This document shows positions 6,318 to 21,972 of a DNA stretch of 64,000 nucleotides, one piece after another (the first letter of the stretch is position 1; every line of letters starts with the position of its first letter). A program made the translations under genes and the position numbers. The notes below the pieces were generated by a model. The model was not told the origin of the DNA and searched no databases. It was given only the letters and a program-made list of their open reading frames with translations. The DNA is taken from assembly GCA_038230835.1 (NCBI GenBank), contig JBBRMM010000003.1, positions 79,904 through 143,903 on the forward strand. The letters are read 5' to 3'. The DNA is from Gaiellales bacterium (GTDB taxonomy: Bacteria > Actinomycetota > Thermoleophilia > Gaiellales > JAICJC01).

Positions 6318-9254
6318 TTATCTCTCGATGCCGAGTTCACGCGTCTCCCTCGCCCACGGGCTCCGCACGATCTCAATCGGTACTCGCTCCGCAAGCCGCT
6401 CAGGCGTGCGATCTGCTCTACGCGTCTTGAACTTCGCCTGTTCGAGGAGAGCTGTGGTCTCGGCAAGCCGTTCATCAGCCAGATCGATCGCATACCGCTG
6501 AAGCCCTATCTCGGTGCGGACCTCGTCGCGACGGCGGCGCCGAACCGGGCTACGGTGCGCGAGTTCGCGTTCGGCCATCTCTAGTCTCCGCTCAGCGACT
6601 TCGCGCGTCTTCACAAGTGCGCGGCGCTTCTGCTCGAGAAGCCGCAGGTGCAACTGGTCATCCACGTTCGGCGCCGAGCGCTCGATCTCCGGTCGCGCCG
6701 CGTGCCTCGGGCCGGACGGGAGCGGGCGCTGGTCGACTGCGAGCCGCTCGACCGCGGACTCCTCGAGCGCGCGGCCGAAGCGGCTGAGCGGGTCGCGGTC
6801 GTCGAGGTCGTGGAAGTGGCTCTCCTGCTCGCGCGGGTTGCCGGTGACGTAGAGGCGTGTCTCCGTTCGCGCGCGGGACAGTGCGACGTATCCCCATTCC
6901 TGCAGCCGTGCCTCGCCGGCTCCGAGGACGAAGGCGCGCTCGACGGTGAGACCCTGCGCGGCGTGACCTGTGAGGGCGTACGCGTGGCGAACATTGCCGG
7001 CCTCCAGGTAGCGGCGGCTGAGCTCGACGGTGGGGCCGCGGTCGGTCGCAACGACGAGTGCCCGCCGGTCGTGGTCGACGCGCTCCACCGTGCCGCAGGT
7101 GCCGTTCTTGACGCCGAGTACGTCCGAGTTGCGCAGGCAGACGACGCGGTCGCCGGCGGCGAACTCGCTGTCCGAGATGGTGAGCCGCTCCTTGCCGAGC
7201 CGCCCATCCCTCTCCATCAGCGAATGAGCGAGCTGGTTGAGGTCGGAGACGTCACGGCGGCGGAGCGCGAGCATGACGTTGCCGCCCAGGTCGTCATGGG
7301 CGTGCTCCCACCAGTCGGCGAGCAGGCGCGTTCGCGTCGTCACGGGGCTCTCGGAGACGAGCAGCCGTTCACGCTTCTCGGCGTAGGCCAGGTAGTCGCG
7401 ACCGACGCCGGCCCGGATGCGGGCGAGCGCGTAACGCTCGACCTCGTCGCGCTGGCGGCGGTTCTCCTGGAGGACAACAGCGCCCTCGCGCTCGACGATG
7501 CCCGCGAAGAGCCCGCCTGCGCCGACGGCAGGCAGCTGGTGCGGATCGCCGATCAAGATGACCTTGGCCTGTGCCTGTTCGGCGAGTTCGAGCACTCGGG
7601 CGAGGACGCGTGTCTCGGCCATGCCGGCCTCGTCGACGATGAGCACGCTCGAGTGAGGCAACCCTCCCTCGTGGCGCGTGTCCTCGAGCAGTCGATGGAG
7701 CGTGACGGAAGCGATGCCGGTCTCATCCTGGAGCTTCTCGGCCGCGACGCCAGACGGCGCAACGCCGATCACGGGGACGCCCTCGTGAGCGAAGACCTGT
7801 GCAACGGCATGGGTGGCGGTGGTCTTGCCGGCGCCCGCGATGCCGACGACGCAGACGACCCGGCCCTCGCTCGTCGCAACCTCGCGCACCATCGTCTCCT
7901 GCTCGTCCGACAGCTCCAAGCGGTCGGCGCGCTCGATCTCGGCGACACGCCGCTCGCTGATTGATGGTGCTTTGGCGTCCCGGCCACGCGCGACGAGTGC
8001 GAGCGCCGCTCGCTCGACCGCGATCAGCTCGGCCGTCGAGTAGCGGGTCGGACGGCCCGGTGACGGCGCCTCACCGACATGCTCGACACCGTCGGTCTGT
8101 GTGAGCCGTGCGGCAAGCTGGCGCACTCGGTCGGCGGACGCACCGGCCGTGTGGGCTTCCGACCACGCCACGACGACGTCGGGATCGGAGAATGCCGTCC
8201 GCTTTTCGGTCAGCCCCTGTGGCCCGAGCAGGCGCCGGGCGATCCGAAGCAGCTCGTCGGCGTCGGGCTGACGGTGCCGGACGCGCCCGAGCAGCGCACG
8301 CAGCTCGCGCGTCCCGAGGCCATGTTCGGCTGCCCGCGCTCGCCAGTCCTCACGCAGCCCCACGAGGTCGATCTGCTCCTTGCGCTCTCGTGTCTCGACC
8401 GCCGCGAGCTGTGCAGCGTAGAAACCGCCATCGCCGCGGCGGGCGAGTTGCTCCTCGACCTGGATTCTCCGCGTCGAGAACTCGCGGATCACGCCGCGCG
8501 GAACATGCCGAAGATCCGCCAGGCCCTTCTGCGGCGTCTCCCACTCGACCCCAACCGCGCGCGTGAGCTCGTTCCGCAGATGGGCCTGGTAGAGGTAGCC
8601 GGCAGCGAGCCGGTAGGTGCGCAGGATCGCCTCCCCGTCGAGCGCTCGCCACTCCTGGTCGGCCGGTGACTGCGCCATGTTGGCCACAATCACGTGCGTG
8701 TGCAGGTGCGGGTCCTGGGCGCGGCTCGTGCGGTGCTGGTACGCGGCGGCGACGAATCCGACGGCATGCTCGCGACGCCTCCCTTGCGCCTCACGCCGGA
8801 TCACGCATGCTTCGTCCTCGAGATAGGCGAGGGCCGCCTGCCAGGCGCTCGTGTGCGCCTCGTTGACGGCTCGGCGGGTTTCCTCGTCGCCGAGCGCATG
8901 CAAGAGGCTGACGCTCTTCGGGACGCTGAAGACGAGGTCGAAGCCGGCGACGGGCGCGAGCTTCTTCGTCTCGACGACGCGCTCGTCTGTCAGCGGGTTG
9001 ATCCGCTCGATCGTGATCTGCCGTGCCCGTCGGTGCATGCGCAGCTCGGCATCGGTGTGCGGGTGGCGGCCGCGGATCAGCCGCCCGAGCTCACCCTCCT
9101 GCACGAGCCCTTCGAGCTCGAGCTCACGAGCGCCGCGACCTGCCCAGACGCCGGGTGACTCACCGCGGCCCGCGTAGTAGTCGTCGAGCCCCGCCGCAAC
9201 CGAGCGCTCGTAGTAGCCCTCCTGCCCCGGCGTGAGTTTCGCGACGCTCAGCAC
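6318..9254 (-). CDS. MobF-family conjugative relaxase (TrwC/TraA-like) fused to a RecD-like SF1 helicase
   Basis: The N-terminus VLSVAKLTPGQEGYYERSVAAGLDDYY and the His motif DPHLHTHVIVANM indicate a TrwC relaxase. The helicase part shows VVGIAGAGKTT, IVDEAGM, ILIGDPHQLPAV and GHAAQGLTV. I chose the GTG at 9254 as the start; the ORF-track ATG at 9311 adds 19 non-conserved residues. Confidence 0.9.
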   Translation of the reverse strand: MLSVAKLTPGQEGYYERSVAAGLDDYYAGRGESPGVWAGRGARELELEGLVQEGELGRLIRGRHPHTDAELRMHRRARQITIERINPLTDERVVETKKLAPVAGFDLVFSVPKSVSLLHALGDEETRRAVNEAHTSAWQAALAYLEDEACVIRREAQGRRREHAVGFVAAAYQHRTSRAQDPHLHTHVIVANMAQSPADQEWRALDGEAILRTYRLAAGYLYQAHLRNELTRAVGVEWETPQKGLADLRHVPRGVIREFSTRRIQVEEQLARRGDGGFYAAQLAAVETRERKEQIDLVGLREDWRARAAEHGLGTRELRALLGRVRHRQPDADELLRIARRLLGPQGLTEKRTAFSDPDVVVAWSEAHTAGASADRVRQLAARLTQTDGVEHVGEAPSPGRPTRYSTAELIAVERAALALVARGRDAKAPSISERRVAEIERADRLELSDEQETMVREVATSEGRVVCVVGIAGAGKTTATHAVAQVFAHEGVPVIGVAPSGVAAEKLQDETGIASVTLHRLLEDTRHEGGLPHSSVLIVDEAGMAETRVLARVLELAEQAQAKVILIGDPHQLPAVGAGGLFAGIVEREGAVVLQENRRQRDEVERYALARIRAGVGRDYLAYAEKRERLLVSESPVTTRTRLLADWWEHAHDDLGGNVMLALRRRDVSDLNQLAHSLMERDGRLGKERLTISDSEFAAGDRVVCLRNSDVLGVKNGTCGTVERVDHDRRALVVATDRGPTVELSRRYLEAGNVRHAYALTGHAAQGLTVERAFVLGAGEARLQEWGYVALSRARTETRLYVTGNPREQESHFHDLDDRDPLSRFGRALEESAVERLAVDQRPLPSGPRHAARPEIERSAPNVDDQLHLRLLEQKRRALVKTREVAERRLEMAERELAHRSPVRRRRRDEVRTEIGLQRYAIDLADERLAETTALLEQAKFKTRRADRTPERLAERVPIEIVRSPWARETRELGIER

Positions 9255-9273
9255 GAGTGTGACTATAGCGCAT

Positions 9274-9295
9274 CTCGACCCATTTATGGGTCGAG
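9274..9295. promoter_or_regulatory. Perfect 9-bp inverted repeat (CTCGACCCA-TTTA-TGGGTCGAG) directly upstream of the relaxase gene; candidate oriT hairpin
   Basis: Read directly from the sequence. The repeat is flanked by GACTATAGCGCA on one side and TGCATCTGTGTCTCAC on the other. These recall the hairpin-plus-TGTCT/ATAG layout of MobF oriT nic regions as I remember it for R388. Confidence 0.4.
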
Positions 9296-9350
9296 TGCAT
9301 CTGTGTCTCACTACCTACCGAGGGTAGTAGATAAGGCGGACGGTTGCTGT

Positions 9351-10958
9351 TCAGGCTGCCTCGTCGAGTGCCTCCTCGGTGCCTTCGCGTGGGTCGCTGG
9401 TCTGCTGCTCAGCTAGGTGCCTGCGGACGCTGGCGGGTGCGACGCGACGGGCGAGCTTGCCGAGGAGCTCGGAGGTTGCGAGCAACTCGGGCTCGTAGAT
9501 GCCTTGCCGGTCGGCGTTCGGCAGCCCGTCCGTGTCGGCCAGCCGTTGTGCGACGAGGAGGCGCAATACGACCGCGAGCGCGTCCTCGGGCGTGCGGGTG
9601 CGCCGGAGGGCGGCGAGGGCCCCGGCGTGGTGCTCCCGCTCGGCGTCGGCGCCGCGTGGGTAGCGGACGGTCTCCCTGCCTTGCTTGTTTGTCGTGGCCG
9701 ACTGGTCGACGCAGAGCCGGTGCGCCCAGGCGGCCGCGCGTCCGTGGTGCTCGAGCACGATCTGCCCGAGGAGCTTGATCGCGTCCGTGTCGAGCTTCGG
9801 CTGCCAACGGGCGAGGGCTGCGCCGAGGTCGAGGTTGCGCGACCGGGCCGAAACGCGCGCCTCGTGCTGCCGCTCGCGCTCGCGGCGGCGCTCCTCCTTG
9901 GCGCCATCGTCCTGCGATGCCGAGGGGCCGCGGGAGTCGCGCTGCTCCCTGCGCTCGGCCTCCGCTGCCGTGTGGGCGGCGATCCTCTGCACGAGCCGAT
10001 CCGCGAGCCAGCCGGGATCGGTGACGTAGCGGTGCTCGCGTCCGCTGTGGCCCGGAAGTTCGAGCAGGCACCCGAACGCGCGCGCGGCGTCGGCGTCATC
10101 GTCTACGAGCGCGAAGCAGTCCCGCTCCCGGCGCTCTTCGGTCTGGCTGGCCTGCCAGTCGTGCTCGGACGTTTGCGGGATCGCGGGCAGTGCTCGGTAG
10201 GCGTTCTCGATCGTTTGCGCGTGGTCGCCGAACTTCGCGAGCACGGCCGCGAGCCTGTCGTCTGCGGGCGGGGTGACCGGGCCGCGGAAGCCGCCGACGC
10301 TGTAGGCGACCGGGTGCAGCGGCTGGCCGTTGTCGGCCCACTCGGCGCGCAGCACGTCGTCGAGTACCTCACCGGGGGCGGTGGGGAACGCTGCGGCATC
10401 GTGCGGGCGCTCGCTCAGCCAGAGGGCGGCCAGGTCTGCGAGGAGCGGCTCGCGCTCGGCTATCCGGAGGAGCACGGGCGCGCAGGCGAGCGGCACCCGA
10501 CGGGCCGCGATCAGCTGCGCCGTCTCGTCGGGGAGGCGGAGCAGGTCGAGCCGGTCCGAGATCAAGCGCTCGCTCTTGCCGACGAGCTTCGCCACCTTCG
10601 CCGCATCGCCGTGCTCGTCGGCGAGGCGGCGGTAGGCGCGAGCCTCCTCCATGGGGCTGAGGTCTGCGCGGATCACGTTCTCCGCGACCGCGAGCGTGAG
10701 CGTTGCGCCGTCTGCCTCACGGATCTGTGCGGGCACCTCGCGGAGCTTTGCGGCCTTTGCCGCCCGGTAGCGGCGCTCCCCGGCGATGATCGCATAGCGG
10801 CCGTCGCCGTCGTGGGACAGCGTCAGCGGGGTGATGATCCCGTAACGCTTCACGGAGTCGATCAGCTCGGCCATGCGTTCGTCGTCGAAGACCGTGCGCG
10901 GGTTGCAGTCGCTCGGGCGGATCTTGGCGAGCGGGATCATGCTCAGGCTGGTGGTCAT
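9351..10958 (-). CDS. ParB/Srx N-terminal domain protein with a long uncharacterised C-terminal region
   Basis: 535 aa. The ParB-like domain shows IPLAKIRPSDCNPRTVFDDERMAELIDSVKRYGIITPLTL and IIAGERRYRAAKAA. Its start overlaps the stop of the DUF932 gene by 4 nt. Confidence 0.8.
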   Translation of the reverse strand: MTTSLSMIPLAKIRPSDCNPRTVFDDERMAELIDSVKRYGIITPLTLSHDGDGRYAIIAGERRYRAAKAAKLREVPAQIREADGATLTLAVAENVIRADLSPMEEARAYRRLADEHGDAAKVAKLVGKSERLISDRLDLLRLPDETAQLIAARRVPLACAPVLLRIAEREPLLADLAALWLSERPHDAAAFPTAPGEVLDDVLRAEWADNGQPLHPVAYSVGGFRGPVTPPADDRLAAVLAKFGDHAQTIENAYRALPAIPQTSEHDWQASQTEERRERDCFALVDDDADAARAFGCLLELPGHSGREHRYVTDPGWLADRLVQRIAAHTAAEAERREQRDSRGPSASQDDGAKEERRRERERQHEARVSARSRNLDLGAALARWQPKLDTDAIKLLGQIVLEHHGRAAAWAHRLCVDQSATTNKQGRETVRYPRGADAEREHHAGALAALRRTRTPEDALAVVLRLLVAQRLADTDGLPNADRQGIYEPELLATSELLGKLARRVAPASVRRHLAEQQTSDPREGTEEALDEAA

Positions 10959-11998
10959 GAGAGCGTTCCTCCTTCGGTTAGGAGCACGAGCGCGCGATCC
11001 TTCAGCGCGGCCGGCTCGGTGGCGCGCTCGAAGCGCGCTTCGCGGTGGCTGCGGCTCGCTGTCTCGCGTGTCGGCTGTGTGTGGTCGACGTAGGCGGCCA
11101 CTCCCTGCAATGCGCCCCAGCGCGTACCAGTGATATTCGCGAGATCGGGGGTTGCCGTGTAGGCGGTCGCGATCGCCTCGCGGACGCGCTCGGCGTTACG
11201 GACGGCGCGGCCGCCGCTGGTCGGATCGTGGCGCGGCTCGGGCATGGGAACGAGGGCGGCGAGGAAGCGCTCGAATTCGGCGCCGCTGATCGGCTCGCGG
11301 AGCAGGCGTCCGCCGATCTGCTCCAGCTCGTCGTAGTAGCGCCAGGCGATCCCGAGCGTGCGGCGGGCGTCGATGAGCCGTGCGTCGAGGTTGGCGGTGT
11401 GGCGGGCCTTCCACACGCGGGCGGCGCCATCGAGCGGGAGCATCATCCCGTTGAGGCACGCGAGCCGGAATGGGGCGACGCTGATCGTCACGGCGAGGCC
11501 GCCGTCGTGGCCGTTGCGGAAGCAGAGCAGCGGCAGTACGTCTTCCCCCTCCGCGTCCCCGATGCGGATCTCGCGGTCGAGTTGCATCAGCGCGTGCACG
11601 CGGGCGCCGCCGCGCGTCTCACCCGCGCCGAGCCAGTGCGCCTCGCCGCTGTCGGTGATCGCGTCGCAGAACGCGAACGCGGCCCGGTTCTGCAGCGGCT
11701 CGTAGCCCTTGCCGACGACACCAAGTACCGTCCCTGTGTCGCTGCGCAGGTTTGCGACGACGCGCGGCACCGGCACGCGGCGCGGCCCGTCGTCGTCGTG
11801 GTCGCCGAGCACTGCTTCGAGCGGATATTGCTCGACAGTCCAAGCAAGGTCGGCGGCATCAATCATCGCCGCTGCCGAGCACCCCTCCTCGGGGCGCAGG
11901 GCTCGCACAACTTCGCCCCATCCGGACGGCCGCCCGCCGAACCAGAGCGGTGATCGGGCGTCCTTGATGCGGTAGCTCGGTGTCTCCATTGTCGTCAT
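10955..11998 (-). CDS. DUF932 (phage/plasmid-like TIGR03299 type) protein
   Basis: 347 aa. Sequence character and its fixed position next to a ParB-like gene fit the DUF932 family common in ICEs and plasmids. The call is from memory of the family, not a search. Confidence 0.65.
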   Translation of the reverse strand: MTTMETPSYRIKDARSPLWFGGRPSGWGEVVRALRPEEGCSAAAMIDAADLAWTVEQYPLEAVLGDHDDDGPRRVPVPRVVANLRSDTGTVLGVVGKGYEPLQNRAAFAFCDAITDSGEAHWLGAGETRGGARVHALMQLDREIRIGDAEGEDVLPLLCFRNGHDGGLAVTISVAPFRLACLNGMMLPLDGAARVWKARHTANLDARLIDARRTLGIAWRYYDELEQIGGRLLREPISGAEFERFLAALVPMPEPRHDPTSGGRAVRNAERVREAIATAYTATPDLANITGTRWGALQGVAAYVDHTQPTRETASRSHREARFERATEPAALKDRALVLLTEGGTLS

Positions 11999-12015
11999 GT
12001 CTGCTTCTCCCTTCG

Positions 12016-12255
12016 CTATGCGGCGGCGCGATTGCCCGCCGCGACGATGAACCGCTCCGGCTCCTCGGCGATTGCCTGGCCAATGAATGTCGCGATCCCA
12101 GCCGCGAGCCAGACCGCCTCGCGCTCGGCGTCATCGAGACCATCTCCGTAGCCCTCGGCCGCCGCCTCTGCCGCCTCCACGGGCAGACACTCGACGAGCC
12201 GCACCTGCTGGATCAGGAACTCCGACAAATGCTCTTGATCGATCCGGTACCTCAT
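12016..12255 (-). CDS. Small acidic hypothetical protein
   Basis: 79-aa ORF, co-directional with the flanking genes and 17 nt upstream of DUF932. I recognise no motif. Confidence 0.45.
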   Translation of the reverse strand: MRYRIDQEHLSEFLIQQVRLVECLPVEAAEAAAEGYGDGLDDAEREAVWLAAGIATFIGQAIAEEPERFIVAAGNRAAA

Positions 12256-12300
12256 GCGTCTCCTCTCGCTGTGAATCCGAGTTAACCCCTCGGGCCGTGG

Positions 12301-12322
12301 GAAACCGCCGCCCTCGGCGGCG
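12301..12322 (-). terminator. Candidate intrinsic terminator after the HTH gene
   Basis: A 7-bp GC stem (CGCCGCC-CTC-GGCGGCG, 12306-12322) is followed on the minus strand by TTTC. Confidence 0.3.
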
Positions 12323-12349
12323 TCACCTTCGGTGGCTGTGTGTCTCGAA

Positions 12350-12553
12350 CTACTCCGCCGGATTCAGTCGGCCCGTGTCGCGCGCCCAGCGCTCCACGCT
12401 CGTCCAGCGCCACACCTCCGACCGGCCGAGGCGTCCGACCGGTCGAGGGAAGTCAGAGCGATTCGCGAGAACCGAGACGCGGGCACGGGAGATACGAAGC
12501 CGCTCAGCAATGTCGGCGGCGATCACGAGCTCGGTCTGCGCATCGACACGCAT
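12350..12553 (-). CDS. Excisionase/AlpA-like helix-turn-helix DNA-binding protein
   Basis: 67 aa. IAADIAERLRISRARVSVLANRSDFPRPV and WRWTSVERWA resemble the MerR/Xis-type small HTH proteins of actinobacterial mobile elements. Confidence 0.65.
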   Translation of the reverse strand: MRVDAQTELVIAADIAERLRISRARVSVLANRSDFPRPVGRLGRSEVWRWTSVERWARDTGRLNPAE

Positions 12554-12593
12554 CCGCCAACATTAACTCAGATCAACTGGGGCGGCGATGGGA

Positions 12594-15500
12594 TCACGCG
12601 CTCGCTTCGGCGAGCTCGACAAAGCGACAGAGGGCGTTCGCGAGCTTCAGATGCTCGACGGTGCGGCAGTCGACCTCGAGGAGCCGCGGCGAGCAGGCCA
12701 CGTATGCGAGGCACTGCGCCCGCGAGACGGCGACGTTCAGCCGGTTGCGCGACATCAGGAAGTCGAGCCCACGCGGAACGTCCTCGCCGCTCGACGACGC
12801 CATCGAGTAGAAGACGACTGCGGCTTCACGTCCCTGGAACTTGTCGACTGTTCCCACCTCGACGCTGCGCGGGAGCCGCTCGCGGAGCAGACGCACCTGC
12901 GCGTTGTACGGTGCAACGACCATCACGTCTGCGTGGCGGAGCGGGCGCTCCCCCTGGCGGTCGCGAAATGTGTGGCCGACGAGCCGTTCGATCTCCGTCG
13001 CGATCGCGACTGCTTCCTCCTCTGAGGCGACGCGGTTTCCCTCATGGGAGACATCGAACCAGCGCACGCCGACTCCGTCGGAGGTCGTGCGTTCGGCACA
13101 CGCGGGAATCGAACCAAGCCGGCCCTCGTAGAACGCTTGCGAGATAAACCGGCAGACCGTTGGGTGCATGCGCCGGGTCTCTTCGAGGAAGACGCCCATG
13201 TTCTCCGGGATCGTCTCGTGGTCGCCCAAGACGTGTTCGAGCACGCTTGCCCTCGAGCCGTACGGGTGGACGCCCTGCGTCACCTGCCCGAGCTGTAGCG
13301 GGTCGCCGAGCAGGACGAGCCGCTTGGCCGACGTCCCGCAGGCGAGGGCGTCGGCGAGGCTGAACTGGCCCGCCTCGTCGACGACGAGCGTGTCGAACTC
13401 CCCGTCGAGCTCCTCGCGGGCAAACAGCCACGCCGTGCCGGCGACGAGCGTCACGTCCGGGTCGAGTAAGGCCGCGATCGACGCACTTGTCTTGACGTGT
13501 GCGCTCTCGAAGTGATCGCCGCGCTTGACCCCCTTGAAGTCGAGGCCCTCCTCGGCGGCCGCGCGCTCCACCTCGGCGAGCAGGTTGTGGATCACCCTGT
13601 GGCTCTGAGCCGTGATCCCGACCTTCCTCCCCTGTGCGAGCAGGTGCGTGATCAGCCGAGCGCCGCGGTAAGTCTTGCCCGACCCGGGCGGCCCCTGGAC
13701 GACGAGGTACGAGTCCTCGAGCCGATCAAGCACGTCGCGCTGGTCGGCAAGCTCGCGGCACTGCATGAGCGCGCCGCAAAGCGGAAGCTCGCAGCGGAGC
13801 AGCCGCTCGAGGTGCATGTACCGGCCGTCGCCGGCGAGAAGCGAGCTGGCGAGCCGGCGGAGCGCCGCCTGCTGCGCCTTCGTGCCGATCGGCCCGCCAG
13901 GCACGAGTGATGTCGGCAGTGGCGCATCGCGCATCTCCTTGCTACGCCGCAACCGGACAACGCCGGTCGCGTTGTCGATCGTAGACACGGTCCAGCCGGT
14001 CCCTTCCTCACGAGGATCCTCACCCCCGTCGCCCTCGTCGAACTGGTGCTGCTGCGGCGGGAAGGTGAACGTCCACTCGAGTGACTTCGCACGGGGATTC
14101 GCAATCGAGAGATCGACAGGCTCCGCACCGTCGTGCTCGAGAGAGCCGATCGCCTCGCCGTCGTCCGCGAGCTCCTCATCGGTCATGCGCAGCCGGCGGA
14201 AATACCACCACCAACCCGGGCGAGCCTCTCGGCGGTGGTACTCGAGCAAGCGTGCGGCAAGCTCCCGGCCGTCGCCATCGCTCGCGTCCGCCAGGAGAGC
14301 GTCCCGGAGGCGCGCGGTCTCGGCCGGCGCCTCGTCGTGCTCGGCCTCGGGTCGCCCCTCAGGCGGCGGCAGAAACGGGATCGGGACACCGTGCTCGCGC
14401 TCGGCCTCGGGCAGCCGAGAGAGCAGCCAGCCACGCAGCTCGAGCGTGGCCAGGCAGTCCTCCTCGTTGTAGGCGGCGATCGCGTCAAGGCGCGCGGCGT
14501 CCTTGTCGTCGAGCCAGCGTTCGAACTCGATCACCGCCTCGTTGCCCGAGCTGACCTCAGCGCGCCGCGTGAAGAAGAGCTTCTCGACGTCCTTGAGCGA
14601 GTAGGAGTCGACGCCGGCGCGGATCCCTTGGCGGACGACCTGGAGAAGGTCGACGAAGATCTCGCCGCGAAGGAACTCGTCGATCTCCTCCTCACGCGTG
14701 GCGTGCGTGCCCATCAGGCGAGCGAGGGTCGAGGGCTCGTAGGTCGCGTAGTGGTAGACGTGCATGTCGGAAAACGCCTGTCTCCGTTCCCCGACGAGAT
14801 CGACGAACTCTTCGAACGCGCGGAGTTCCCCATCGCGGTCATGGGCCCAGAAAGGCCGGTACGTTGTCGTGCCGCCTGGGTCGCGGCAGAGCACCCCGAA
14901 CAGGAACTCGAGGCCCTCGGCCGGGTCGTAGAACGGATCGCCCTCCATGTCGAAGAACAGGTCGCCAGGCGAGGGAGCCGGGAGAAGCCCGAGTCCGCGC
15001 CGCTCCTCGGGCACGAGCAGCCGGTGCGTGAGCTCGTCGGTGCGGTAGCGGTGGAGCTGGAGGGCAGACTGATCGCACAGCTTCTCCACCATCGCCGGAG
15101 CGAGGCGACGCACCGCGAGCCCGGCCGGAGCCTCACCGAGGGCCGTCAGCGTCGTGATATCGACGGTCGCGAGCTTGCCGATCTGATCACGCCGGATCGA
15201 TGCAACCCGCGTCAAGTGATCGTCGGCCACCCAGCGGTCGCGACAAACGGGCACGAAGTCGCAGCGTGAGCAGTGCTCGCACGGCCACGGGTACGTCTCC
15301 GGTGTGTCCTCAACGTGGGCGCGTAGGCGCCGCTGCGCGATACGAAGGTAGGCTTCGACGTCTGCCGGTCTGTACGTCTCGACTTCAGCCGTGCCGAGCA
15401 CAACGTGCAGGCACTCCGGCAACCGCCCTTGAATCGCGGCGATCTCACCTGCGTACCACGCCAGCTGGAGCACCGCGGCCGGTTTGGCGCTGCGCGCGAG

Positions 15501-15914
15501 CTTCGTATCGTAGGGCTCGTAACTCCAGCCTCCGAGGTCCGAGGGCTCGTCGATCCGGACGAGGAAGTCGGCGCGTCCGCGCCAGCCGGCACGTGGGAAA
15601 GTCGCCTGGTAGATGACGTCTGCGCCTGCACACATCGCGGCGATGGTGGTCGCATGAGCCTCGTCGAAGGCGGCGGGGTGTTCCGGTAGCTCGACCTCGG
15701 CGATCGCGCGGCCATTGGCCCGGAGCTCCTCGAGGTACCGCTTCTCGTGCAGGTCGCCCTTGTCGGCGACAAGCTGCGCGAGCGCCTCGCGGATGTGCGG
15801 CTTCGTCCGTCTTCTGTGCGCGGTCTCCAGTTCGAGCGTGGTCAGGTGCGGACACGCGAGGTAGTTCGAGAGGTCGGACGGAGAGAGAAGAAGTTGGCCG
15901 TCGTGCAGCTGCAT
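12594..15914 (-). CDS. Three-domain protein: Cas4/AddB-like PD-(D/E)XK nuclease with a Cys cluster, an RNase-H-like (YprB/TM0106-type) exonuclease domain, and a Dna2/Upf1-like SF1 helicase
   Basis: 1106 aa.
- N-terminal nuclease: YLACPH, GRADFLV, YEPYDTKL, CEHCSRCDFVPVC (pattern C...CxxCx5C).
- Middle exonuclease: FFDMEGDP, HVYHYATYE, AYNEEDC.
- C-terminal helicase: VVQGPPGSGKTY, LVVDEAGQ, LLGDPLQLGQV, VDKFQGREA, LNVAVSRAQ. Confidence 0.85.
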   Translation of the reverse strand: MQLHDGQLLLSPSDLSNYLACPHLTTLELETAHRRRTKPHIREALAQLVADKGDLHEKRYLEELRANGRAIAEVELPEHPAAFDEAHATTIAAMCAGADVIYQATFPRAGWRGRADFLVRIDEPSDLGGWSYEPYDTKLARSAKPAAVLQLAWYAGEIAAIQGRLPECLHVVLGTAEVETYRPADVEAYLRIAQRRLRAHVEDTPETYPWPCEHCSRCDFVPVCRDRWVADDHLTRVASIRRDQIGKLATVDITTLTALGEAPAGLAVRRLAPAMVEKLCDQSALQLHRYRTDELTHRLLVPEERRGLGLLPAPSPGDLFFDMEGDPFYDPAEGLEFLFGVLCRDPGGTTTYRPFWAHDRDGELRAFEEFVDLVGERRQAFSDMHVYHYATYEPSTLARLMGTHATREEEIDEFLRGEIFVDLLQVVRQGIRAGVDSYSLKDVEKLFFTRRAEVSSGNEAVIEFERWLDDKDAARLDAIAAYNEEDCLATLELRGWLLSRLPEAEREHGVPIPFLPPPEGRPEAEHDEAPAETARLRDALLADASDGDGRELAARLLEYHRREARPGWWWYFRRLRMTDEELADDGEAIGSLEHDGAEPVDLSIANPRAKSLEWTFTFPPQQHQFDEGDGGEDPREEGTGWTVSTIDNATGVVRLRRSKEMRDAPLPTSLVPGGPIGTKAQQAALRRLASSLLAGDGRYMHLERLLRCELPLCGALMQCRELADQRDVLDRLEDSYLVVQGPPGSGKTYRGARLITHLLAQGRKVGITAQSHRVIHNLLAEVERAAAEEGLDFKGVKRGDHFESAHVKTSASIAALLDPDVTLVAGTAWLFAREELDGEFDTLVVDEAGQFSLADALACGTSAKRLVLLGDPLQLGQVTQGVHPYGSRASVLEHVLGDHETIPENMGVFLEETRRMHPTVCRFISQAFYEGRLGSIPACAERTTSDGVGVRWFDVSHEGNRVASEEEAVAIATEIERLVGHTFRDRQGERPLRHADVMVVAPYNAQVRLLRERLPRSVEVGTVDKFQGREAAVVFYSMASSSGEDVPRGLDFLMSRNRLNVAVSRAQCLAYVACSPRLLEVDCRTVEHLKLANALCRFVELAEASA

Positions 15915-16053
15915 CAGGAGGAGTATCGACGGTCACTCGGCTGATGGCTACGCGCAGCCTTGAGTCTGGCGCTGGCGGCGAGACCAGCGCGCACGTTCGG
16001 GATGAAGCACACCGTGGAGAAATGACCGTCGCTTCGCTAACCGCTTCCGCTAA

Positions 16054-17680
16054 CCTCGATTCTGCGTGGGGATGGTTGAGGTGGTGTCGGTGGGGTTGTG
16101 ACAGTGGTGGCGTATGCGGGTTGGTGGCCAGGTGCCGGTGTTCGCGTGATGGTCTGGTTTTCTTGCATGCTGCGGCTGGCGTACGGGGCGTGATCACCGC
16201 TCGCCGGTTGCCGGTGAGGTGGGAGTTACATGGGCATCGCGACCGTGATCTGTTTGGCGCGCTGGTAGGCGTCGAGTAGGTGGGTTGTCCACGGCCATGT
16301 GCGGGGTAGGTGGAGGGTGTGTTGACGGCCGTGGTGGGTGATCCGCCCGGCGACGGCGATGAGCGTGAAACGGAGTGTTTGTGGCTCTGTCCACACGCTT
16401 TCGGTGGGGCGCGCGAGGCCGTGTGTCCAGGCGATCAGATCCTGCGCCAAGAGCACGACTTGCAGCCACGTGTGATTGGCCATGAAGCCGCCGAAGGGCA
16501 GGTTTTTGAGGCCCAGCTGGCGCGCTTCGCGGATGCGATCCTCGACGATCGCGTGGTGGCGGTGTGCCCGCTCGATCATGGCCGCGTCCGCCACCTGATC
16601 GTTGGTGATGCAGGCCAGGTAGCGGTGCCCGTCGGCGTCGGAGAAGGACAGTTGCGCACCGGGGTGGGGCCGCTCGCGACGCACGATCAGGCGCAGATGC
16701 GCCGGCCAGCCGGGGTGGGCCGGCCAGCTCGCCTCAGCCAGCCAGGCGCCCTCACGAGGGCTGCCATCCACCTCCGTGATCGGCCGCCAGGCATCGTCTG
16801 CGACCGCCATGATGGCGTCGCGGACCGGGCCGTGCAGCCTCGCCCCGACCACGAACCGCACGCCTCGCTGGCACAACCCCCAGACCACGTCTTTGGCGTA
16901 GCCCGCGGTGTCGGCGCGCACCACCACGTCTTGAGGCGAGACGCTTGCAGGCAACTGCTCAAGCGCCAGGTCAACCACCTCCAACTGGTCTTCGGCGTCC
17001 AGCGCCGAGGCGCAACCGGGCCGCAGGATCCCGGCCAGCGCCTCGCCCGTCTCCGCCAAGTAGGCGACCAACGGGTGAAACCCGAACCCCTGCTTATAGG
17101 TCGCAAACGCCGCCTCCTTCTCGTCTGTGTGGCTGGTCACCAGATGCACGTCGATGTCGATCGTGACCGTCTCGGGTCGCAGACCCGCCTGCCAGGCCCG
17201 CGCACGCGTGGCCGCCCGCCCCGCCGTCAGCCCTGCCAGCGGCGCGCCCACCAGCCGCTCAGCCAATAGCCGCCACGCGGTCGAGTCGTGCGCGGTCGCG
17301 TCTGCAAACAGGGCTGGCTGGTCACGCAACCCACGCAGATGCATCACGCAGTCGCCACCAGCAATCAACATCTGCGCCAAACGCACCAGCGTCCGACCCG
17401 GCGGCTGCGAGCGATACGCCAATCCCACCGCCTCGGTCAACTCCCGCTCCAGGCCCAGCCGCTGCGCCACCTCATCCACCACCACCAGGCCCGCGTGGGA
17501 CACCAACCGATCATCGTCAGCCACCAACCGCAACGTCCGACGCCGCTTCCTATGCTTCACCATCCGGGTGACCTCCTGACGCGGGCCTCGCGGCTGCCCA
17601 TACAGCCCGTCTCCCCGCTCAGGGGGTCATTCTTCTTCTCCCACCGGACGACGCCACCCCACCCTCACGCAGAATCGAGG
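16054..17680 (-). mobile_element. IS1380-family insertion sequence (1627 bp) with imperfect terminal inverted repeats and a 4-bp target-site duplication
   Basis: The left end CCTCGATTCTGCGTGGGGATGG (from 16054) matches the reverse complement of the right end, CCTCGATTCTGCGTGAGGGTGG (to 17680). CTAA is present at 16050-16053 and again at 17681-17684. A single transposase ORF lies inside. Confidence 0.85.
16226..17563 (-). CDS. IS1380-family DDE transposase
   Basis: 445 aa. The N-terminus KHRKRRRTLRLVADDDRLVSHAGLVVVDEVAQRLGLE and the overall length and organisation are typical of IS1380 transposases. Confidence 0.85.
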   Translation of the reverse strand: MVKHRKRRRTLRLVADDDRLVSHAGLVVVDEVAQRLGLERELTEAVGLAYRSQPPGRTLVRLAQMLIAGGDCVMHLRGLRDQPALFADATAHDSTAWRLLAERLVGAPLAGLTAGRAATRARAWQAGLRPETVTIDIDVHLVTSHTDEKEAAFATYKQGFGFHPLVAYLAETGEALAGILRPGCASALDAEDQLEVVDLALEQLPASVSPQDVVVRADTAGYAKDVVWGLCQRGVRFVVGARLHGPVRDAIMAVADDAWRPITEVDGSPREGAWLAEASWPAHPGWPAHLRLIVRRERPHPGAQLSFSDADGHRYLACITNDQVADAAMIERAHRHHAIVEDRIREARQLGLKNLPFGGFMANHTWLQVVLLAQDLIAWTHGLARPTESVWTEPQTLRFTLIAVAGRITHHGRQHTLHLPRTWPWTTHLLDAYQRAKQITVAMPM

Positions 17681-17757
17681 CTAACCAACGTGAGAGGTTG
17701 GCCGGGGGACGGCTGCCTGCCAAGGAAGTGTCTGTGCCCACGAGGGTGGCGGGTCGG

Positions 17758-17837: not shown

Positions 17838-18299
17838 ATGATCACGGACTCTCTGGCGGCGGAGTTGTCCGCCTCGCCCGGACGCTTCGTCCTTATCGAC
17901 GGTCGAGCCAGCGCCAACGAGGTGATCGACGAGTGGGAACAGATGTTGGGCACGACACGGTGCTCGGTGGGCGCACGGCTCACATCGTTGACCGAACCGC
18001 CGTCGAGCCAAGCGATCGAGGCGCTCCTGCGGCCCGATCCCCTCCTCGTTGACATCGAAGTTCTTTTCGCTTCGGAGCTCGCAGTCGATCCGTTGATGCT
18101 GCTGCGGCGCCTGGCCCGAATTTCGAACCCGCGCCTCGCCCTCTGGCCGGGAAGTCTTGCGGCCGGTCGGGCACGGTTCTCAGAGCCGCAACGAGAGGAT
18201 CACTACGACCGTCCCGTCGAGGATGTGATCATCTTGCGGCCAGTGTCCCGTTCGTTTCCCGATGAACCGTGCTTTGAGATCGAGAGGTGGCTGAGTTGA
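17838..18299 (+). CDS. brxF: Small protein in the BrxF position of a type 3 BREX operon
   Basis: 153 aa, overlapping the brxC start by 13 nt. Position and size match BrxF, but the sequence contains no lysine and therefore no Walker A GK[ST]. Confidence 0.5.
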   Translation: MITDSLAAELSASPGRFVLIDGRASANEVIDEWEQMLGTTRCSVGARLTSLTEPPSSQAIEALLRPDPLLVDIEVLFASELAVDPLMLLRRLARISNPRLALWPGSLAAGRARFSEPQREDHYDRPVEDVIILRPVSRSFPDEPCFEIERWLS

Positions 18300-21200
18300 A
18301 GTACGACGAGCTGATCGCCTTCGAGCCGATCGACAGCGTCAAAGTGCTGACTGAGGCCGACAGCGAGGATTTGGCTCGACGCGACGTGTCGACGTTCGTG
18401 ATCTCGCCGCAGATGCGACGAATGTTGGTCGAGCAACTCCTCCCGCATCTCCGGCTCGACGGCTCGGTCGACACCAAAGGCGTGCTCGTGGTAGCCAACT
18501 ACGGCACGGGCAAAACCCACCTCATGGCAACTATTTCAGCGGTGCTCGAGCACGCCGAACTCGCCGCCGAGCTGCGTGATGAGGACGTGCGCAAGGCGAT
18601 CGACGATGTCGCCGGGAGCTTCCAGGTGATGCGCGCGGAGATCGGCGCGACCAAGATGGGGCTGCGAGACATCGTCTGTGGAGAACTTGAGAGCGGGCTC
18701 AAGCGCCTAGGTGTGGACTTCACCTTCCCCCCGCTTGAGGAGGTAAGCAACACCAAGGACTCGCTCGTGGACATGATGGCCGCTTTTGAGAAGGTCGAGC
18801 CCGACCGCGGACTGCTGTTCGTGCTCGACGAGCTTCTGGACTACCTGCGCTCGCGTCGGGACGCCGAATTGATCGTCGACCTCGCGTTCTTGCGTGAGAT
18901 CGGCGAAATCAGTCGGACGACTCGCTTCCGCTTCATCGCCGGCATCCAGGAGGCGCTCTTCGACAACCCGCGTTTCGCGTCCGCGTCAGACGCTATCCGG
19001 CGCGTCCGCGACCGGTTCGAGCAGGTCCGTATCTCGCGTGAGGATGTCGCCTACGTCGTCCAGGAACGGCTCCTCCGCAAGGAGGCCGCGCAGAAGGCGC
19101 TGATCCGCGAGCACCTTGAGCGCTTCACGCCGGCGTTCGACGGGATGTCCGAGCGGCTCGAGGAGTTCGTCGCGCTCTACCCGGTGCATCCGTCGTACCT
19201 GCGGACGTTCGAGAGGGTGACGCTCGTGGAAAAGCGCCGCGTTCTGTCGACGCTGTCACATGCCATGGCCGAGCTCCTAAAGAGCGACGTTCCGACGGAA
19301 GCTCCCGGTCTCATCTGCTACGACGCCTATCGGTCTGAACTCGACAACGACCCTTCGAACCGATCGATACCCGACGTCGCGCTGGTGCTCGACCGCACCC
19401 ACGTACTGCGGTCCAAGCTCGAGAGCGCGCTGCCGCAGAAGGAGGACGTGCCAGCCGCGCTGCGCATTGTGGACGCGCTCGCGGTTCACCGCCTGACGAC
19501 TGAGGATATCGACGTCCCGATCGGCTTGACCGTCGACGAATTGCGCGACGACCTATGTCTCATTCCCGAAGGAGTGCCGGAACTTGACGCGGGTTTCATT
19601 GGTACGACGCTTGAGTCGGTTGTGGCAGAGATTGTGAAAGCCGTCTCGGGTCAGTTCCTTTCCCGCAACGACGACAACGGCCAACTCTTCCTCGATGTCC
19701 GGAAGGACATCGACTACGACCAGCTCATCCAGGAGCGCGCCGACTCGCTCGACGACCAGCGCCTAGACGACGCCTACTTTCGCGCGCTGGAGGAGGTTCT
19801 CGAGCAGCGCGACACACCATATGTCGCTAGCTACCGCATCTGGTCGTACGAGCTTCCGTGGAAGGCCAAGAACGTGACGCGGCTCGGGTACTTGTTCATG
19901 GGAGCGCCGAACGAGCGCTCTACGGCGCAGCCGCCGCGCGACTTTTACATCTATTTCCTCCAGCCCTACGAGGAACCTGCGTTCGCCGACCAGGAGTTGG
20001 CTGACGAGACCTTTGTGAGGCTTGAGGCGCCAGACGATGACTTCACTGCCGCGCTACGCCGGTACGCCGGTGCGGACGCGTTGACGGCCAGTTCCACTGA
20101 GCAGCATCGGCTCGTCTACGAGCAGAAACGCCAGCAGGCATTGCAGACGATGGTCGTTTGGCTTCGGCAGAACATGGCGAACGCGATGACGGTGACCTAC
20201 CGAGGCGAGGCGAAGCCCCTCGGTACCTGGCTCCAGCAGATCCCGGGTGCAAAGACATCAGTGAAGGCGCAGATCGATGCGATCGCAGCCCGTGCGCTCG
20301 AACCACACTTCGATGAGCGCTATCCCGGCTATCCCGCGTTTTCCGCAGAGATCACGAAGCAAAGCTTCGACGGAACGGTGCAGGCCGCGATCTCACAGAT
20401 TGCTACACGCCGCGCGACAGCTCTCGGGACCAAGGTACTCACTTCTCTAGGGCTGGCGGACATGAACGGGCAGATCGTCGCCGACGGCGAGTTCGCGAAG
20501 GCACTCCTCACCGCGCTTGAAAAGTCGGGGGACAAGGCCGTCAACCGTTCGGAGTTGCTGACCGAACGGGACCCCGGCGTACTCACGTGGGCGCCATGGC
20601 ACCTCGAGCCGTCATGGCTCGTCGTTGTCGCCGCAGCACTCTGCCATGCTGGACGGCTGGAACTCGGCTACCCGGCTGGGCAAGTCGACGCTGTCGGGCT
20701 CGACCGGTTGACGAAGATGTCGCGCGAGGAGCTCGTGCAGCTGACACACGTTGCCCCTCCGAAGGCGCTTCCTATCGTCGCACTACGCGACGCCGCGGCT
20801 CTGCTCGACATCGCCCCTGGCGCCGTCCCCGACTCTGGCGCGACCGAACCAGTGGTTCAGCAGATCCTGGACAAGACCCAGACCTACCTGAATCGCGTGC
20901 TCGACGCCGAGCAGCAAGTGAGCGACGGCGTGCTCGTTTGGGGCGCCCACGCGATCGACCACCAGCAGGACCGTCGCCTCCGACTCGCAGATTTGCGCAA
21001 GGTTCTCGAGGACCTCAAGGGCCGCGACTCGGTCGGGAAGATGAACAAACTGGCAATCGGGCCTGCGGAGCTCGAGGCGGCACACCGCGGAAAGCAGGAG
21101 CTTGAACGGACCGAGGGAATCGTCAGGGCTCGTAACCATCTCTCCGCGCTCCAGTACGTCACCGATGCGCAGGCCGCGTTCGACCAGGTCGACCCCTTCC

Positions 21201-21970: not shown

Positions 21971-21972
21971 CC

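What the first reader, a model, noticed from the sequence alone, without database searches (positions are those of the whole stretch)
12594..15914. Single 1106-aa gene fusing a Cas4-like Fe-S nuclease, an RNase-H-like exonuclease and an SF1 helicase, sitting between ICE genes and BREX: candidate uncharacterised defence or anti-invader gene
**What the sequence shows.**
- An N-terminal PD-(D/E)XK core (GRADFLV, EPYDTK) with a Cys pattern (C21 plus CxxCx5C) like the Cas4/AddB iron-sulfur nucleases.
- A central DEDD-like RNase-H-fold module (DMEG, HYATYE, YNEED).
- A complete Dna2/Upf1-type SF1 helicase (GSGKT, DEAGQ, QGRE, VAVSRA).

**Context.** It is transcribed divergently from a type 3 BREX operon and lies within an ICE that also carries IetAS. 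That is the guilt-by-association context used to discover defence genes.

**Why it matters.** Two nuclease types plus a helicase in one polypeptide recalls nuclease-helicase immunity proteins (Nhi-like) and Dna2/AddAB logic. I know of no experimental function for this TM0106-type fusion. This is my best candidate for something undescribed in the window. A housekeeping or ICE-maintenance role cannot be excluded.
Basis: partly seen in the sequence, partly recalled or inferred. Interest (0 to 1): 0.7.

Follow-up and report, generated by a model that had tools for sequence, protein, structure and literature searches.

The report
Untested Dna2-like nuclease-helicase, defence-island cargo
This 1106-residue gene fuses two DNA-cutting modules to a DNA-unwinding motor; nobody has tested its widespread family, and this copy and its closest relatives always sit beside bacterial anti-virus systems, so it is a good but unproven candidate immune gene.

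Summary
Window 12594-15914 (-) encodes a 1106-aa protein with three modules: a Cas4-type Fe-S nuclease, a DEDDy RNase-H-fold exonuclease and an Upf1/Dna2-type SF1B helicase. All catalytic residues are invariant across 64 homologues. The AlphaFold model is confident, and its best solved match is eukaryotic Dna2.

The gene lies at the distal edge of an ICE. It was originally divergent from type 3 BREX across about 291 bp, now split by an IS insertion.

The fusion family (TIGR03491 plus helicase) is large, spans many phyla, is patchy and non-syntenic, and has no conserved partner gene. It occurs on 69 plasmids and is essentially absent from phages.

All nine sampled members of the target's clade (>=71% identity) abut defence or mobile cargo: BREX-2, BREX-3, Hma-like, type III-like R-M with GmrSD or Mrr, and a sacsin/NOV_C protein. 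Distant members sit tightly beside Shango, Hma or type III R-M. Most distant members, however, lie among ordinary chromosomal genes.

I found no experimental work on the family. It is not Nhi, MkoA or CRISPR Cas4. The closest characterised analogue is the Geobacillus Dna2-like enzyme Bad.

My best reading (about 0.5) is an autonomous enzyme that degrades DNA from ends or flaps and is carried as anti-invader cargo. A DNA-repair role is the main rival.

The parts
12594..15914 (-). Complete gene: 1106-aa TM0106-type nuclease-exonuclease-helicase fusion (stop codon 12594-12596)
   Evidence: ORF; third-position GC 0.85; TIGR03491 at 258 bits; homologues at E = 0; AlphaFold pLDDT 89.6, pTM 0.82
15210..15914 (-). 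Residues 1-235: Cas4/Dna2-type PD-(D/E)XK 'iron-staple' nuclease. Key residues are C21, C215, C218, C224, D116, E133, D136-T-K138 and Q150-x3-Y154.
   Evidence: C21, C215, C218, C224, D116, D136, K138, Q150 and Y154 are invariant in 64 sequences; E133 is at least 90% conserved. Foldseek matches Cas4 4R5Q (8e-5), 8D3L and Dna2 5EAW. The TIGR00372 cas4 hit is weak, 21 bits.
15015..15209 (-). Residues 236-300: short helical linker. It looks like a helix-hairpin-helix on reading the sequence, which is an inference.
   Evidence: Helices 242-249, 256-260 and 273-292 in the model. The stretch lies inside the TIGR03491 match.
14385..15014 (-). Residues 301-510: RNase-H-fold DEDDy-type exonuclease module. 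Key residues are D322, E324, D422, Y482 and D486, plus the invariant E393.
   Evidence: Pfam RNase_H_2 at 3e-26. The residues are invariant. Foldseek matches the MrfB exonuclease core 8UN9 with probability 0.98. Majorek 2014 places this family among 3'-5' exonucleases.
13755..14384 (-). Residues 511-720: helical stalk plus beta-barrel in front of the motor, equivalent to the accessory domains of Upf1-like helicases. It carries conserved motifs (YHRREARPxWW, FPxQQH).
   Evidence: Secondary structure. The alignment to IGHMBP2/Upf1 spans about 650 columns. Conserved columns.
12597..13754 (-). Residues 721-1106: SF1B (Upf1/Dna2-like) helicase core. Motifs: Walker A GPPGSGKT (K747), DEAGQ (846-850), GDPxQL, TVDKFQGRE, NVAVSRA.
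   Evidence: AAA_30, AAA_11 and AAA_12. PDB sequence hits to SETX, IGHMBP2, UPF1 and DNA2. Foldseek. Motifs invariant.
15922..15927 (-). GATACT, a -10-like hexamer 7 nt upstream of the ATG. It may be the promoter of a leaderless mRNA, which is an inference.
   Evidence: GATACTCC is conserved just upstream of the start codon in the window, L001, L003 and L004, although the sequence further upstream is unrelated. The sigma-70 consensus scan found nothing.
16054..17681 (-). Context: an IS1380-like insertion sequence (DDE_Tnp_1_4 transposase 16226-17563) inserted between the gene and brxF
   Evidence: Pfam. Terminal inverted repeats at 16051-16075 and 17659-17683. CTAA duplication at 16050-16053 and 17682-17685.
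17838..28777 (+). Context: type 3 BREX operon (BrxF, BrxC, PglXI, BrxH helicase, PglZ). It was originally divergent from the gene across about 291 bp.
   Evidence: PADLOC and Pfam. This stretch has lower GC, 0.62-0.66.
6318..11998 (-). Context: the ICE module downstream on the same strand (DUF932, ParB-like, TrwC relaxase-helicase). L005 has the same order.
   Evidence: Pfam; L005; shared clusters.

Best explanation
The gene encodes a self-contained, Dna2/Bad-like DNA-degrading motor carried as accessory cargo of mobile elements and defence islands.

**Proposed mechanism (inferred).**
- The SF1B helicase loads on single-stranded DNA at a free end, flap or ss/ds junction and moves 5'->3'.
- It threads that strand through the Fe-S 'iron-staple' Cas4-type nuclease placed ahead of the motor.
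- The extra DEDDy exonuclease trims 3' ends or the displaced strand.
- Together, DNA with exposed ends or replication and recombination intermediates is destroyed. Substrates would include phage genomes, incoming plasmids, or fragments left by neighbouring restriction-like systems. Intact chromosomal DNA offers no entry point.

**Shown here.** The three intact catalytic modules, their strict conservation, the confident Dna2-like fold, the lack of any obligatory partner gene, and the genomic placement.

**Not shown.** Substrate, polarity, nuclease activities and any protective phenotype.
For: - **Architecture.** Domain matches. Invariant catalytic residues in 64 homologues down to about 36% identity.
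- **Structure.** AlphaFold pLDDT 89.6. The best solved match is Dna2 across nuclease and helicase, followed by IGHMBP2, Upf1 and SETX. The N-terminal domain matches Cas4 and Dna2, and the central domain matches the MrfB exonuclease.
- **Autonomy.** No partner gene is conserved in 90 loci. A conserved GATACTCC lies just upstream of the start codon in otherwise unrelated upstream contexts.
- **Accessory, mobile character.** The family is patchy across many phyla at 36-53% identity. It is on 69 plasmids, 26 of them conjugative. Copies sit at ICE edges in the window, L005 and Legionella. It is absent from 50,697 phage records and nearly absent from 2.9 million viral contigs.
- **Defence linkage, close clade.** Nine of nine clade members at >=71% identity abut defence or mobile cargo: BREX-3, BREX-2 twice, Hma-like, type III-like R-M with GmrSD or Mrr, sacsin/NOV_C with Vsr/Dcm, and two helicase clusters.
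- **Defence linkage, distant members.** Tight adjacency to Shango (overlapping, or a 2-bp gap), Hma, SNF2 plus type III R-M, and a Bil-like ubiquitin system.
- **Analogue.** Bad is an Fe-S nuclease plus SF1B helicase. It shows 5'-3' translocation and ssDNA endonuclease activity, and always neighbours a type III-like methyltransferase.
Against: - No phenotype or biochemistry exists for this family.
- In 80 reference-genome loci the +/-1 neighbours are mostly transporters, peptidases and signalling proteins. Only a minority are defence genes. Only 13 of 80 loci hit my limited defence probes and 2 of 80 hit mobile-element probes.
- Relatives at 63-64% identity lie among ileS, tig, clpP and clpX or among metabolic genes.
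- I could not run a formal enrichment test against matched controls.
- No PADLOC model captures the protein beyond its generic helicase core.
- Co-location in an island does not prove function.
Confidence: 0.5

Rival explanations
1. It is an accessory DNA-repair or recombination enzyme, a bacterial functional counterpart of Dna2/AddAB. It would resect breaks or process flaps and stalled forks for the host or the element. Its place in defence islands would be incidental or secondary.
For: - The best structural match is Dna2.
- The exonuclease module resembles MrfB, a repair exonuclease.
- Many homologues lie in ordinary chromosomal neighbourhoods.
- WYL-type regulators appear near the gene in 11 of 90 loci. 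From my own knowledge, such regulators include DNA-damage regulators.
- An ATP-dependent DNA ligase, RNase H and SNase lie nearby in L003.
Against: - The distribution is patchy and non-syntenic.
- The family is carried on plasmids and ICEs.
- Nine of nine close relatives abut defence or mobile cargo.
- Some members are tightly coupled to Shango, type III R-M or Hma.
- Core repair genes are normally conserved within lineages.
Confidence: 0.22
2. It is a dedicated effector or accessory subunit of the neighbouring helicase/ATPase/methylase system (here BREX). It would supply the DNA-degrading activity that system lacks, and would not work alone.
For: - It was originally divergent from brxF across about 291 bp.
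- It lies about 85 bp after the BrxD-BrxHI tail of BREX-2 in L001 and L003.
- It overlaps, or is 2 bp from, the homologous SngB-SngC pair of Shango in L018 and L016.
- Mod/Res pairs recur beside it.
- Bad is always next to a type III-like methyltransferase.
Against: - The partner differs from locus to locus: at least five unrelated systems.
- Most family members have no such neighbour.
- The gene seems to carry its own upstream promoter-like motif.
- BREX, Shango and Hma are defined without it. From my own knowledge, they protect without it in tested hosts.
Confidence: 0.12
3. It serves the conjugative element itself. It would process transferred DNA during transfer or establishment, or act as an anti-defence or exclusion factor against the recipient's systems or rival elements.
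For: - It lies on the same strand, directly upstream of the DUF932-ParB-TrwC module, in the window and L005.
- It sits at the ICE edge next to integrases in Legionella.
- It lies next to an FtsK-like translocase element in L095.
- 26 conjugative plasmids carry homologues.
Against: - Seven of the nine close relatives show no relaxase module within the 10 kb read downstream.
- Only 2 of 80 reference loci hit mobile-element probes.
- 37 of the 69 plasmids are non-mobilizable.
- The flank that varies is the defence side, as expected for cargo rather than transfer backbone.
Confidence: 0.08

Closest known systems
Eukaryotic Dna2 nuclease-helicase (PDB 5EAN, 5EAW, 5EAX)
   Same: [quoted passage not shown] Dna2 is the best Foldseek match over about 1110 columns, E = 5e-25. 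It is also hit by sequence in the helicase part.
   Different: Only 16% identity, with TM about 0.35 and rmsd about 24 A overall, so the domain arrangement differs. Dna2 has no RNase-H-fold exonuclease between nuclease and motor. [quoted passage not shown]
Bad, the bacterial DNA2-like helicase-nuclease of Geobacillus stearothermophilus (Wilkinson et al. 2020, PMC7430649)
   Same: An Fe-S nuclease, a central extra domain and an SF1B helicase in a monomer of similar size. The spacing from nuclease motif III to Walker A is 665 residues in Bad and 611 here. Bad is sporadic in bacteria. It neighbours a type III-like methyltransferase and was proposed to be part of a novel restriction system.
   Different: The authors report Bad's central domain as having no detectable homology. 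Here the central domain is a clear RNase_H_2 match at 3e-26. I could not obtain Bad's sequence, so homology is untested. Bad's measured activities (5'-3' translocation, ssDNA endonuclease, DNA looping) are only a guide.
Nhi (nuclease-helicase immunity, Staphylococcus SERP2475)
   Same: A single polypeptide with an N-terminal PD-(D/E)XK nuclease and an SF1 helicase. It acts alone against phage DNA replication intermediates. This is the same logic I propose here.
   Different: No hit to the PADLOC Nhi model. Nhi's helicase is DUF2075/Dda-like (PF09848), which scores 16.6 bits here against a cut-off of 24. Nhi's nuclease is HsdR-like without an Fe-S cluster, and Nhi has no RNase-H-fold module.
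TIGR03491 / COG2251 'TM0106 family RecB-like putative nuclease'
   Same: The protein is a clear member: 258 bits against a cut-off of 97. Majorek et al. 2014 noted the combination of a Cas4-like DUF83, PF13482 and tandem AAA (helicase) domains for COG2251.
   Different: The family name is only a label. It is listed as uncharacterised and I found no tested member.
Cas4 (CRISPR adaptation nuclease) and the AddB nuclease domain
   Same: The same iron-staple RecB-type nuclease fold and the same cysteine pattern.
   Different: It scores below the cas4 cut-off, 21 bits against 65. No cas genes appeared among the annotated neighbours. The domain is fused to an exonuclease and a helicase rather than acting with Cas1-Cas2 or AddA.
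Mokosh MkoA (Upf1-like helicase defence protein)
   Same: The helicase core is the best PADLOC match, MkoA PDLC03920 at 6.9e-50.
   Different: The match covers only residues 810-1088, the motor. The N-terminal 700 residues are unmatched. No PLD-nuclease partner is adjacent.

Membership tests
TM0106 family RecB-like putative nuclease (TIGR03491 / COG2251) | Score above the curated cut-off of the family model | tested here: met
   258.2 bits against a cut-off of 97.45, residues 13-497
TM0106 family RecB-like putative nuclease (TIGR03491 / COG2251) | A Cas4-like nuclease followed by a PF13482 RNase-H-fold domain, often with a C-terminal tandem P-loop helicase | tested here: met
   Pfam RNase_H_2 at 3e-26 and AAA_11/AAA_12/AAA_30; four invariant Cys and nuclease motifs; Cas4 fold match; the architecture as described
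Dna2/Bad-type iron-staple nuclease + SF1B helicase | [quoted passage not shown] | tested here: met
   C21, C215, C218 and C224 are invariant. Foldseek matches Cas4 and the Dna2 nuclease. Metal content itself cannot be tested here.
Dna2/Bad-type iron-staple nuclease + SF1B helicase | A C-terminal SF1B helicase core with a complete motif set | tested here: met
   Motifs invariant; sequence and fold matches to Upf1, IGHMBP2, SETX and Dna2
Dna2/Bad-type iron-staple nuclease + SF1B helicase | 5'->3' translocation and ssDNA endonuclease activity | not testable with these tools
   This needs biochemistry. It is known only for Dna2 and Bad.
Dna2/Bad-type iron-staple nuclease + SF1B helicase | Sequence homology to Bad along its whole length, including Bad's central domain | not testable with these tools
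   Bad's sequence (WP_053413574) was not retrievable. The authors report no detectable homology for its central domain.
Nhi | A match to the Nhi profile, or a DUF2075 (PF09848) helicase | tested here: not met
   No Nhi hit at E <= 0.1 in PADLOC. PF09848 scores 16.6 bits against a cut-off of 24.
Mokosh (MkoA/MkoB or MkoC) | A full-length MkoA match and a PLD nuclease partner or fusion | tested here: not met
   The MkoA match is limited to the motor, residues 810-1088. The neighbours are DUF932 and an IS transposase, with no PLD.
CRISPR-associated Cas4 | Score above the cas4 cut-off and association with cas1/cas2 | tested here: not met
   TIGR00372 scores 21 bits against a cut-off of 65. No cas genes appear among the annotated neighbours.
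BREX (as a component) | Regular co-occurrence with the BREX core genes pglZ and brxC/pglY | tested here: not met
   BREX lies next to the gene in only 3 of about 97 loci examined: the window, L001 and L003.
Defence-island gene (guilt by association) | The majority of family members lie next to known defence genes | tested here: inconclusive
   Nine of nine in the >=71% clade. Only a minority of the +/-1 neighbours in 80 reference loci are defence genes. No matched control was possible.

The most novel reading that the evidence does not exclude
The TM0106-helicase fusion could be an exchangeable DNA-destroying module. It would plug into helicase/ATPase/methylase systems that lack an obvious nuclease: BREX, Shango, Hma and type III-like Mod/Res with SNF2.

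It recurrently follows the homologous ATPase-helicase pairs BrxD-BrxHI and SngB-SngC, within 0-85 bp, in phyla as distant as Actinomycetota and Acidobacteriota. It may be recruited or licensed by those pairs and so supply the missing killing step. That would also explain why Bad always neighbours a type III-like methyltransferase.
Probability: 0.12. Interest if true: 0.8.

Novelty: new variant of a known kind. Interest (0 to 1): 0.55.

Why it matters
- **An untested family of real size.** Single-chain nuclease-helicases such as Dna2, Bad, Nhi and AddAB are a known kind. This three-enzyme version (Fe-S nuclease, DEDDy exonuclease, SF1B motor) has at least 1,885 sequence clusters across many phyla and no experimental data.
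- **If it protects.** It would add a widespread single-gene system that current defence-finding tools miss, especially in poorly studied soil phyla.
- **A possible link to BREX and Shango.** How these systems stop phage DNA is still unclear. The gene's recurrent tight linkage to their tails suggests a concrete experiment.
- **If it is a repair enzyme.** It would be a bacterial counterpart of Dna2 with an added proofreading-type nuclease, which would be of interest for the evolution of end resection.

Tried and rejected
- **Nhi membership:** rejected. There was no profile hit, and Nhi has a different helicase family and nuclease type.
- **Mokosh MkoA:** rejected. The match covers only the motor and there is no PLD partner.
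- **Obligate BREX component:** rejected. Partners vary and are mostly absent.
- **Conserved partner gene or operon:** none found in 90 loci.
- **Phage origin:** rejected.
- **ICE backbone gene:** unlikely, because the relaxase module is present in only 2 of the 9 close loci.
- **Literature searches.** 'TM0106' returned only corrosion-standard papers. 'RecB-like putative nuclease' returned nothing. Two recent defence-discovery papers based on modularity do not mention these domains.
- **Rv1251c lead.** I recalled that M. tuberculosis Rv1251c might be a homologue, but could not verify it.
- **Bad's sequence:** absent from the paper's supplement, so homology is untested.
- **Locus scans with no result.** The sigma-70 promoter scan found nothing. 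There were no Rfam matches in 11500-18000. Only small repeats of unclear meaning lie in the 595-bp gap downstream of the gene, and no oriT could be called.
- **Limits of the neighbour survey.** The aggregate PADLOC/Pfam scan gives family counts, not per-protein calls.

Full report
**Observation.** The ORF at 12594-15914 on the minus strand is real: 1106 aa, ATG start. Its third-position GC of 0.85 matches other genes in this 68-72% GC window. It has thousands of full-length homologues at E = 0. TIGR03491 (TM0106 family RecB-like putative nuclease) covers residues 13-497 at 258 bits against a cut-off of 97. Pfam RNase_H_2 covers 319-497 at 3e-26, and the SF1 helicase families AAA_30, AAA_11 and AAA_12 cover 724-1075.

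**Anatomy.** Two alignments, one of 23 and one of 64 homologues reaching about 36% identity, keep every catalytic residue invariant.
- **Iron-staple nuclease:** C21, C215, C218, C224, D116, D136-x-K138 and the RecB-family Q150-x3-Y154.
- **DEDDy-type exonuclease:** D322-x-E324, D422 and Y482-x3-D486, plus E393.
- **Helicase:** Walker A (K747), DEAGQ, GDPxQL, TVDKFQG and NVAxSRA.

The AlphaFold model is confident, with pLDDT 89.6 and pTM 0.82. From it I place the domains as follows:

| Residues | Module |
|---|---|
| 1-235 | nuclease |
| 236-300 | helical linker |
| 301-510 | RNase-H fold exonuclease |
| 511-720 | helical stalk plus beta-barrel |
| 721-1106 | motor |

Foldseek against the PDB ranks eukaryotic Dna2 first. 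That match spans nuclease and helicase, though with a different overall arrangement (TM 0.35). IGHMBP2, Upf1 and senataxin follow for the motor. A separate model of the N-terminal 720 residues (pLDDT 89.2) matches Cas4 (4R5Q, 8D3L) and the Dna2 nuclease. Its central module matches the MrfB DEDD exonuclease core. All three enzymes therefore look active and under selection. Their activities themselves are inferred.

**The locus.** Downstream on the same strand lie DUF932, a ParB-like protein and a TrwC relaxase-helicase. Further on are an AAA+ ATPase plus S8-like protease pair, consistent with IetAS, and a type IV coupling protein. Upstream lies an IS1380-like element with 25-nt inverted repeats and a CTAA target duplication. 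Removing it would leave the gene divergent from brxF across about 291 bp. The BREX operon (BrxF, BrxC, PglXI, BrxH, PglZ) has lower GC than its surroundings. It is followed by chromosomal-looking genes. The gene, the IS and BREX therefore sit at the distal edge of the ICE. I found no tRNA, Rfam match or clear oriT.

**The family.**
- The N-terminal 700 residues match 1,885 clusters (50% identity representatives) at E <= 1e-30. Of the top 150 hits, 96 are >=1000 aa, so the full fusion is the norm.
- One-genome-per-species scanning found at least 592 species. They span Actinomycetota, Chloroflexota, Acidobacteriota, Eremiobacterota, Proteobacteria, Cyanobacteria and others, at only 36-53% identity to the target.
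- Sixty-nine plasmids carry it, 26 of them conjugative.
- No GenBank phage carries it. Only 13 loci were found in 2.9 million viral contigs, all near contig ends.
- Clustering the neighbours of 90 loci found no conserved partner. The commonest neighbour family, a WYL regulator, occurs in 11 loci at varying positions.

**Neighbourhoods.** The target's own clade is striking. All nine sampled members at >=71% identity abut defence or mobile cargo.

| Locus | Neighbouring cargo |
|---|---|
| window | BREX-3 |
| L001, L003 | BREX-2, about 85 bp upstream on the same strand |
| L004 | Hma-like DUF1156 methylase plus SNF2/NOV_C helicase, then GmrSD and ScoMcrA fragments |
| L005 | SNF2/DUF4391 cluster; the same DUF932-ParB-TrwC order as the window |
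| L006 | MTase-ResIII-GmrSD |
| L007 | DEAD helicase plus AAA_15 ATPase |
| L095 | integrase, sacsin/NOV_C protein, Vsr, Dcm, FtsK-like translocase |
| L096 | MTase-ResIII-Mrr |

In these loci the upstream side always carries such cargo, of differing type, and the downstream side also varies. The gene thus behaves as cargo, not as transfer backbone. A conserved GATACTCC lies 7 nt before the ATG in otherwise unrelated upstream contexts, which suggests it brings its own, possibly leaderless, promoter.

Distant members show recurrent tight linkages.
- **Shango.** A complete system (SngA/B/C, E down to 1e-261) overlaps the gene's start in L018 and begins 2 bp after its stop in L016.
- **Hma.** HmaA/B/C lie upstream in L080.
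- **SNF2 plus type III R-M.** Present in L010 and L081.
- **Mod/Res.** One particular pair is shared by L006, L058 and L096, and its Res homologue follows the gene on a Phenylobacterium plasmid.
- **Plasmid contexts.** A Bil-like ubiquitin cluster lies 20 bp upstream, and an SNF2 plus sacsin pair 12 bp upstream.
- **Legionella.** The homologue sits at an ICE edge beside integrases.

Against this, relatives at 63-64% identity sit among ileS, tig, clpP and clpX or among metabolic genes. The +/-1 neighbours in 80 reference loci are mostly ordinary genes with a minority of defence hits. Only 13 of 80 loci hit my limited defence probes. I could not run a matched control. The association is therefore strong for this clade and only suggestive for the family as a whole.

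**What is known.** The architecture was catalogued in 2014 and called uncharacterised. I found no paper that tests a member. The nearest characterised enzyme is Bad from Geobacillus. It has an Fe-S nuclease, an unknown central domain and an SF1B helicase. It shows 5'-3' translocation and ssDNA endonuclease activity. It always lies next to a type III-like methyltransferase and was proposed as part of a new kind of restriction enzyme. Whether Bad is homologous along its full length could not be tested. Nhi is an analogue with different domains. The MkoA hit covers only the motor. The protein falls below the Cas4 cut-off and has no cas neighbours.

**Interpretation.** The best-supported reading (about 0.5) is an autonomous Dna2/Bad-like motor. 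It would enter DNA at ends, flaps or junctions, feed one strand into the Fe-S nuclease, and use the DEDDy exonuclease on 3' ends. It would be carried as anti-invader cargo, and may finish off DNA nicked or cut by neighbouring systems.

| Rival reading | Confidence |
|---|---|
| Accessory repair or resection enzyme | 0.22 |
| Dedicated effector of the adjacent BREX, Shango or R-M type system | 0.12 |
| Function in ICE transfer, establishment or anti-defence | 0.08 |

The most novel reading not excluded is that it is an exchangeable nuclease module for defence systems that lack an obvious nuclease of their own (0.12).

**Verdict.** This is a member of a catalogued but untested family. It is best classed as a new variant of the nuclease-helicase kind, and it is a worthwhile, clearly testable candidate rather than a demonstrated defence gene.

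Noticed in passing
window 16054-17681: An IS1380-like element (DDE_Tnp_1_4 transposase 16226-17563, 25-nt terminal inverted repeats, CTAA target duplication) is inserted in the divergent promoter region between the gene and brxF. It could alter expression of either side.
   Followed up: yes
window 2370-6049 (-): An AAA+ ATPase (5093-6049) is followed by a 914-aa protein with S8-peptidase His (SHGT) and Ser (GTSNAAA) motifs. The pair sits in a low-GC stretch between the coupling protein and the relaxase.
   Followed up: partly
L018 3250-13429; L016 10001-20604: Complete Shango systems (SngA/B/C) are tightly coupled to family members in two phyla, in opposite gene order. In L016 the SngC helicase is fused to an RNase_T/DEDDh exonuclease, and SngB looks frameshifted.
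   Followed up: partly
L006 2131-7931; L058 2-5544; L096 1997-8787; L091 12586-13899: One particular type III-like Mod (about 900 aa) and Res (about 1050 aa) pair recurs beside family members at 53-76% identity. Its Res homologue directly follows the gene on a Phenylobacterium plasmid. This parallels the published bad/methyltransferase adjacency.
   Followed up: partly
L095 5804-9928; L092 5864-8968; L004 3199-6636: Large proteins with sacsin-type ATPase and/or NOV_C (DUF3883) domains lie immediately upstream of family members in three unrelated loci. The two sacsin proteins are not detectably similar to each other by phmmer.
   Followed up: partly
L005 13399-15042; L006 14399-15490; L037, L063, L070: Stand-alone RNase_T-family (DEDDh) exonuclease genes recur within a few genes of family members. 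SNase genes recur in L003 and L005.
   Followed up: no
window 15915-15929 (-); L001, L003, L004 upstream of 10001/6952: A conserved GATACTCC lies 7 nt upstream of the ATG, with no Shine-Dalgarno sequence (the spacer reads CCTCCTG). It may be the -10 element of a leaderless transcript.
   Followed up: partly
window 17838-29500: The BREX-3 region has distinctly lower GC (0.62-0.66) than the ICE and chromosome (0.68-0.72), which suggests separate acquisition. The ORF at 28492-29478, after pglZ, had no Pfam hit, so the expected BrxA was not identified.
   Followed up: no
11 of 90 loci (e.g. L008 22273-23211): HTH-WYL-WCX regulators are the most frequent neighbour family of this gene family. Their positions vary from -6 to +8 genes.
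   Followed up: no
window 12417-12448: Two adjacent 15-nt copies (TCCGACCGGCCGAGG and TCCGACCGGTCGAGG), each partly palindromic, lie in the 595-bp gap between the gene and DUF932. Their meaning is unknown.
   Followed up: no
window 51684-52547 (+) and 55216-60024 (-): A small N6/N4-type methyltransferase-like ORF in the chromosomal part weakly matches the Mod probe (2.6e-14). A 1602-aa ORF nearby was not examined.
   Followed up: no
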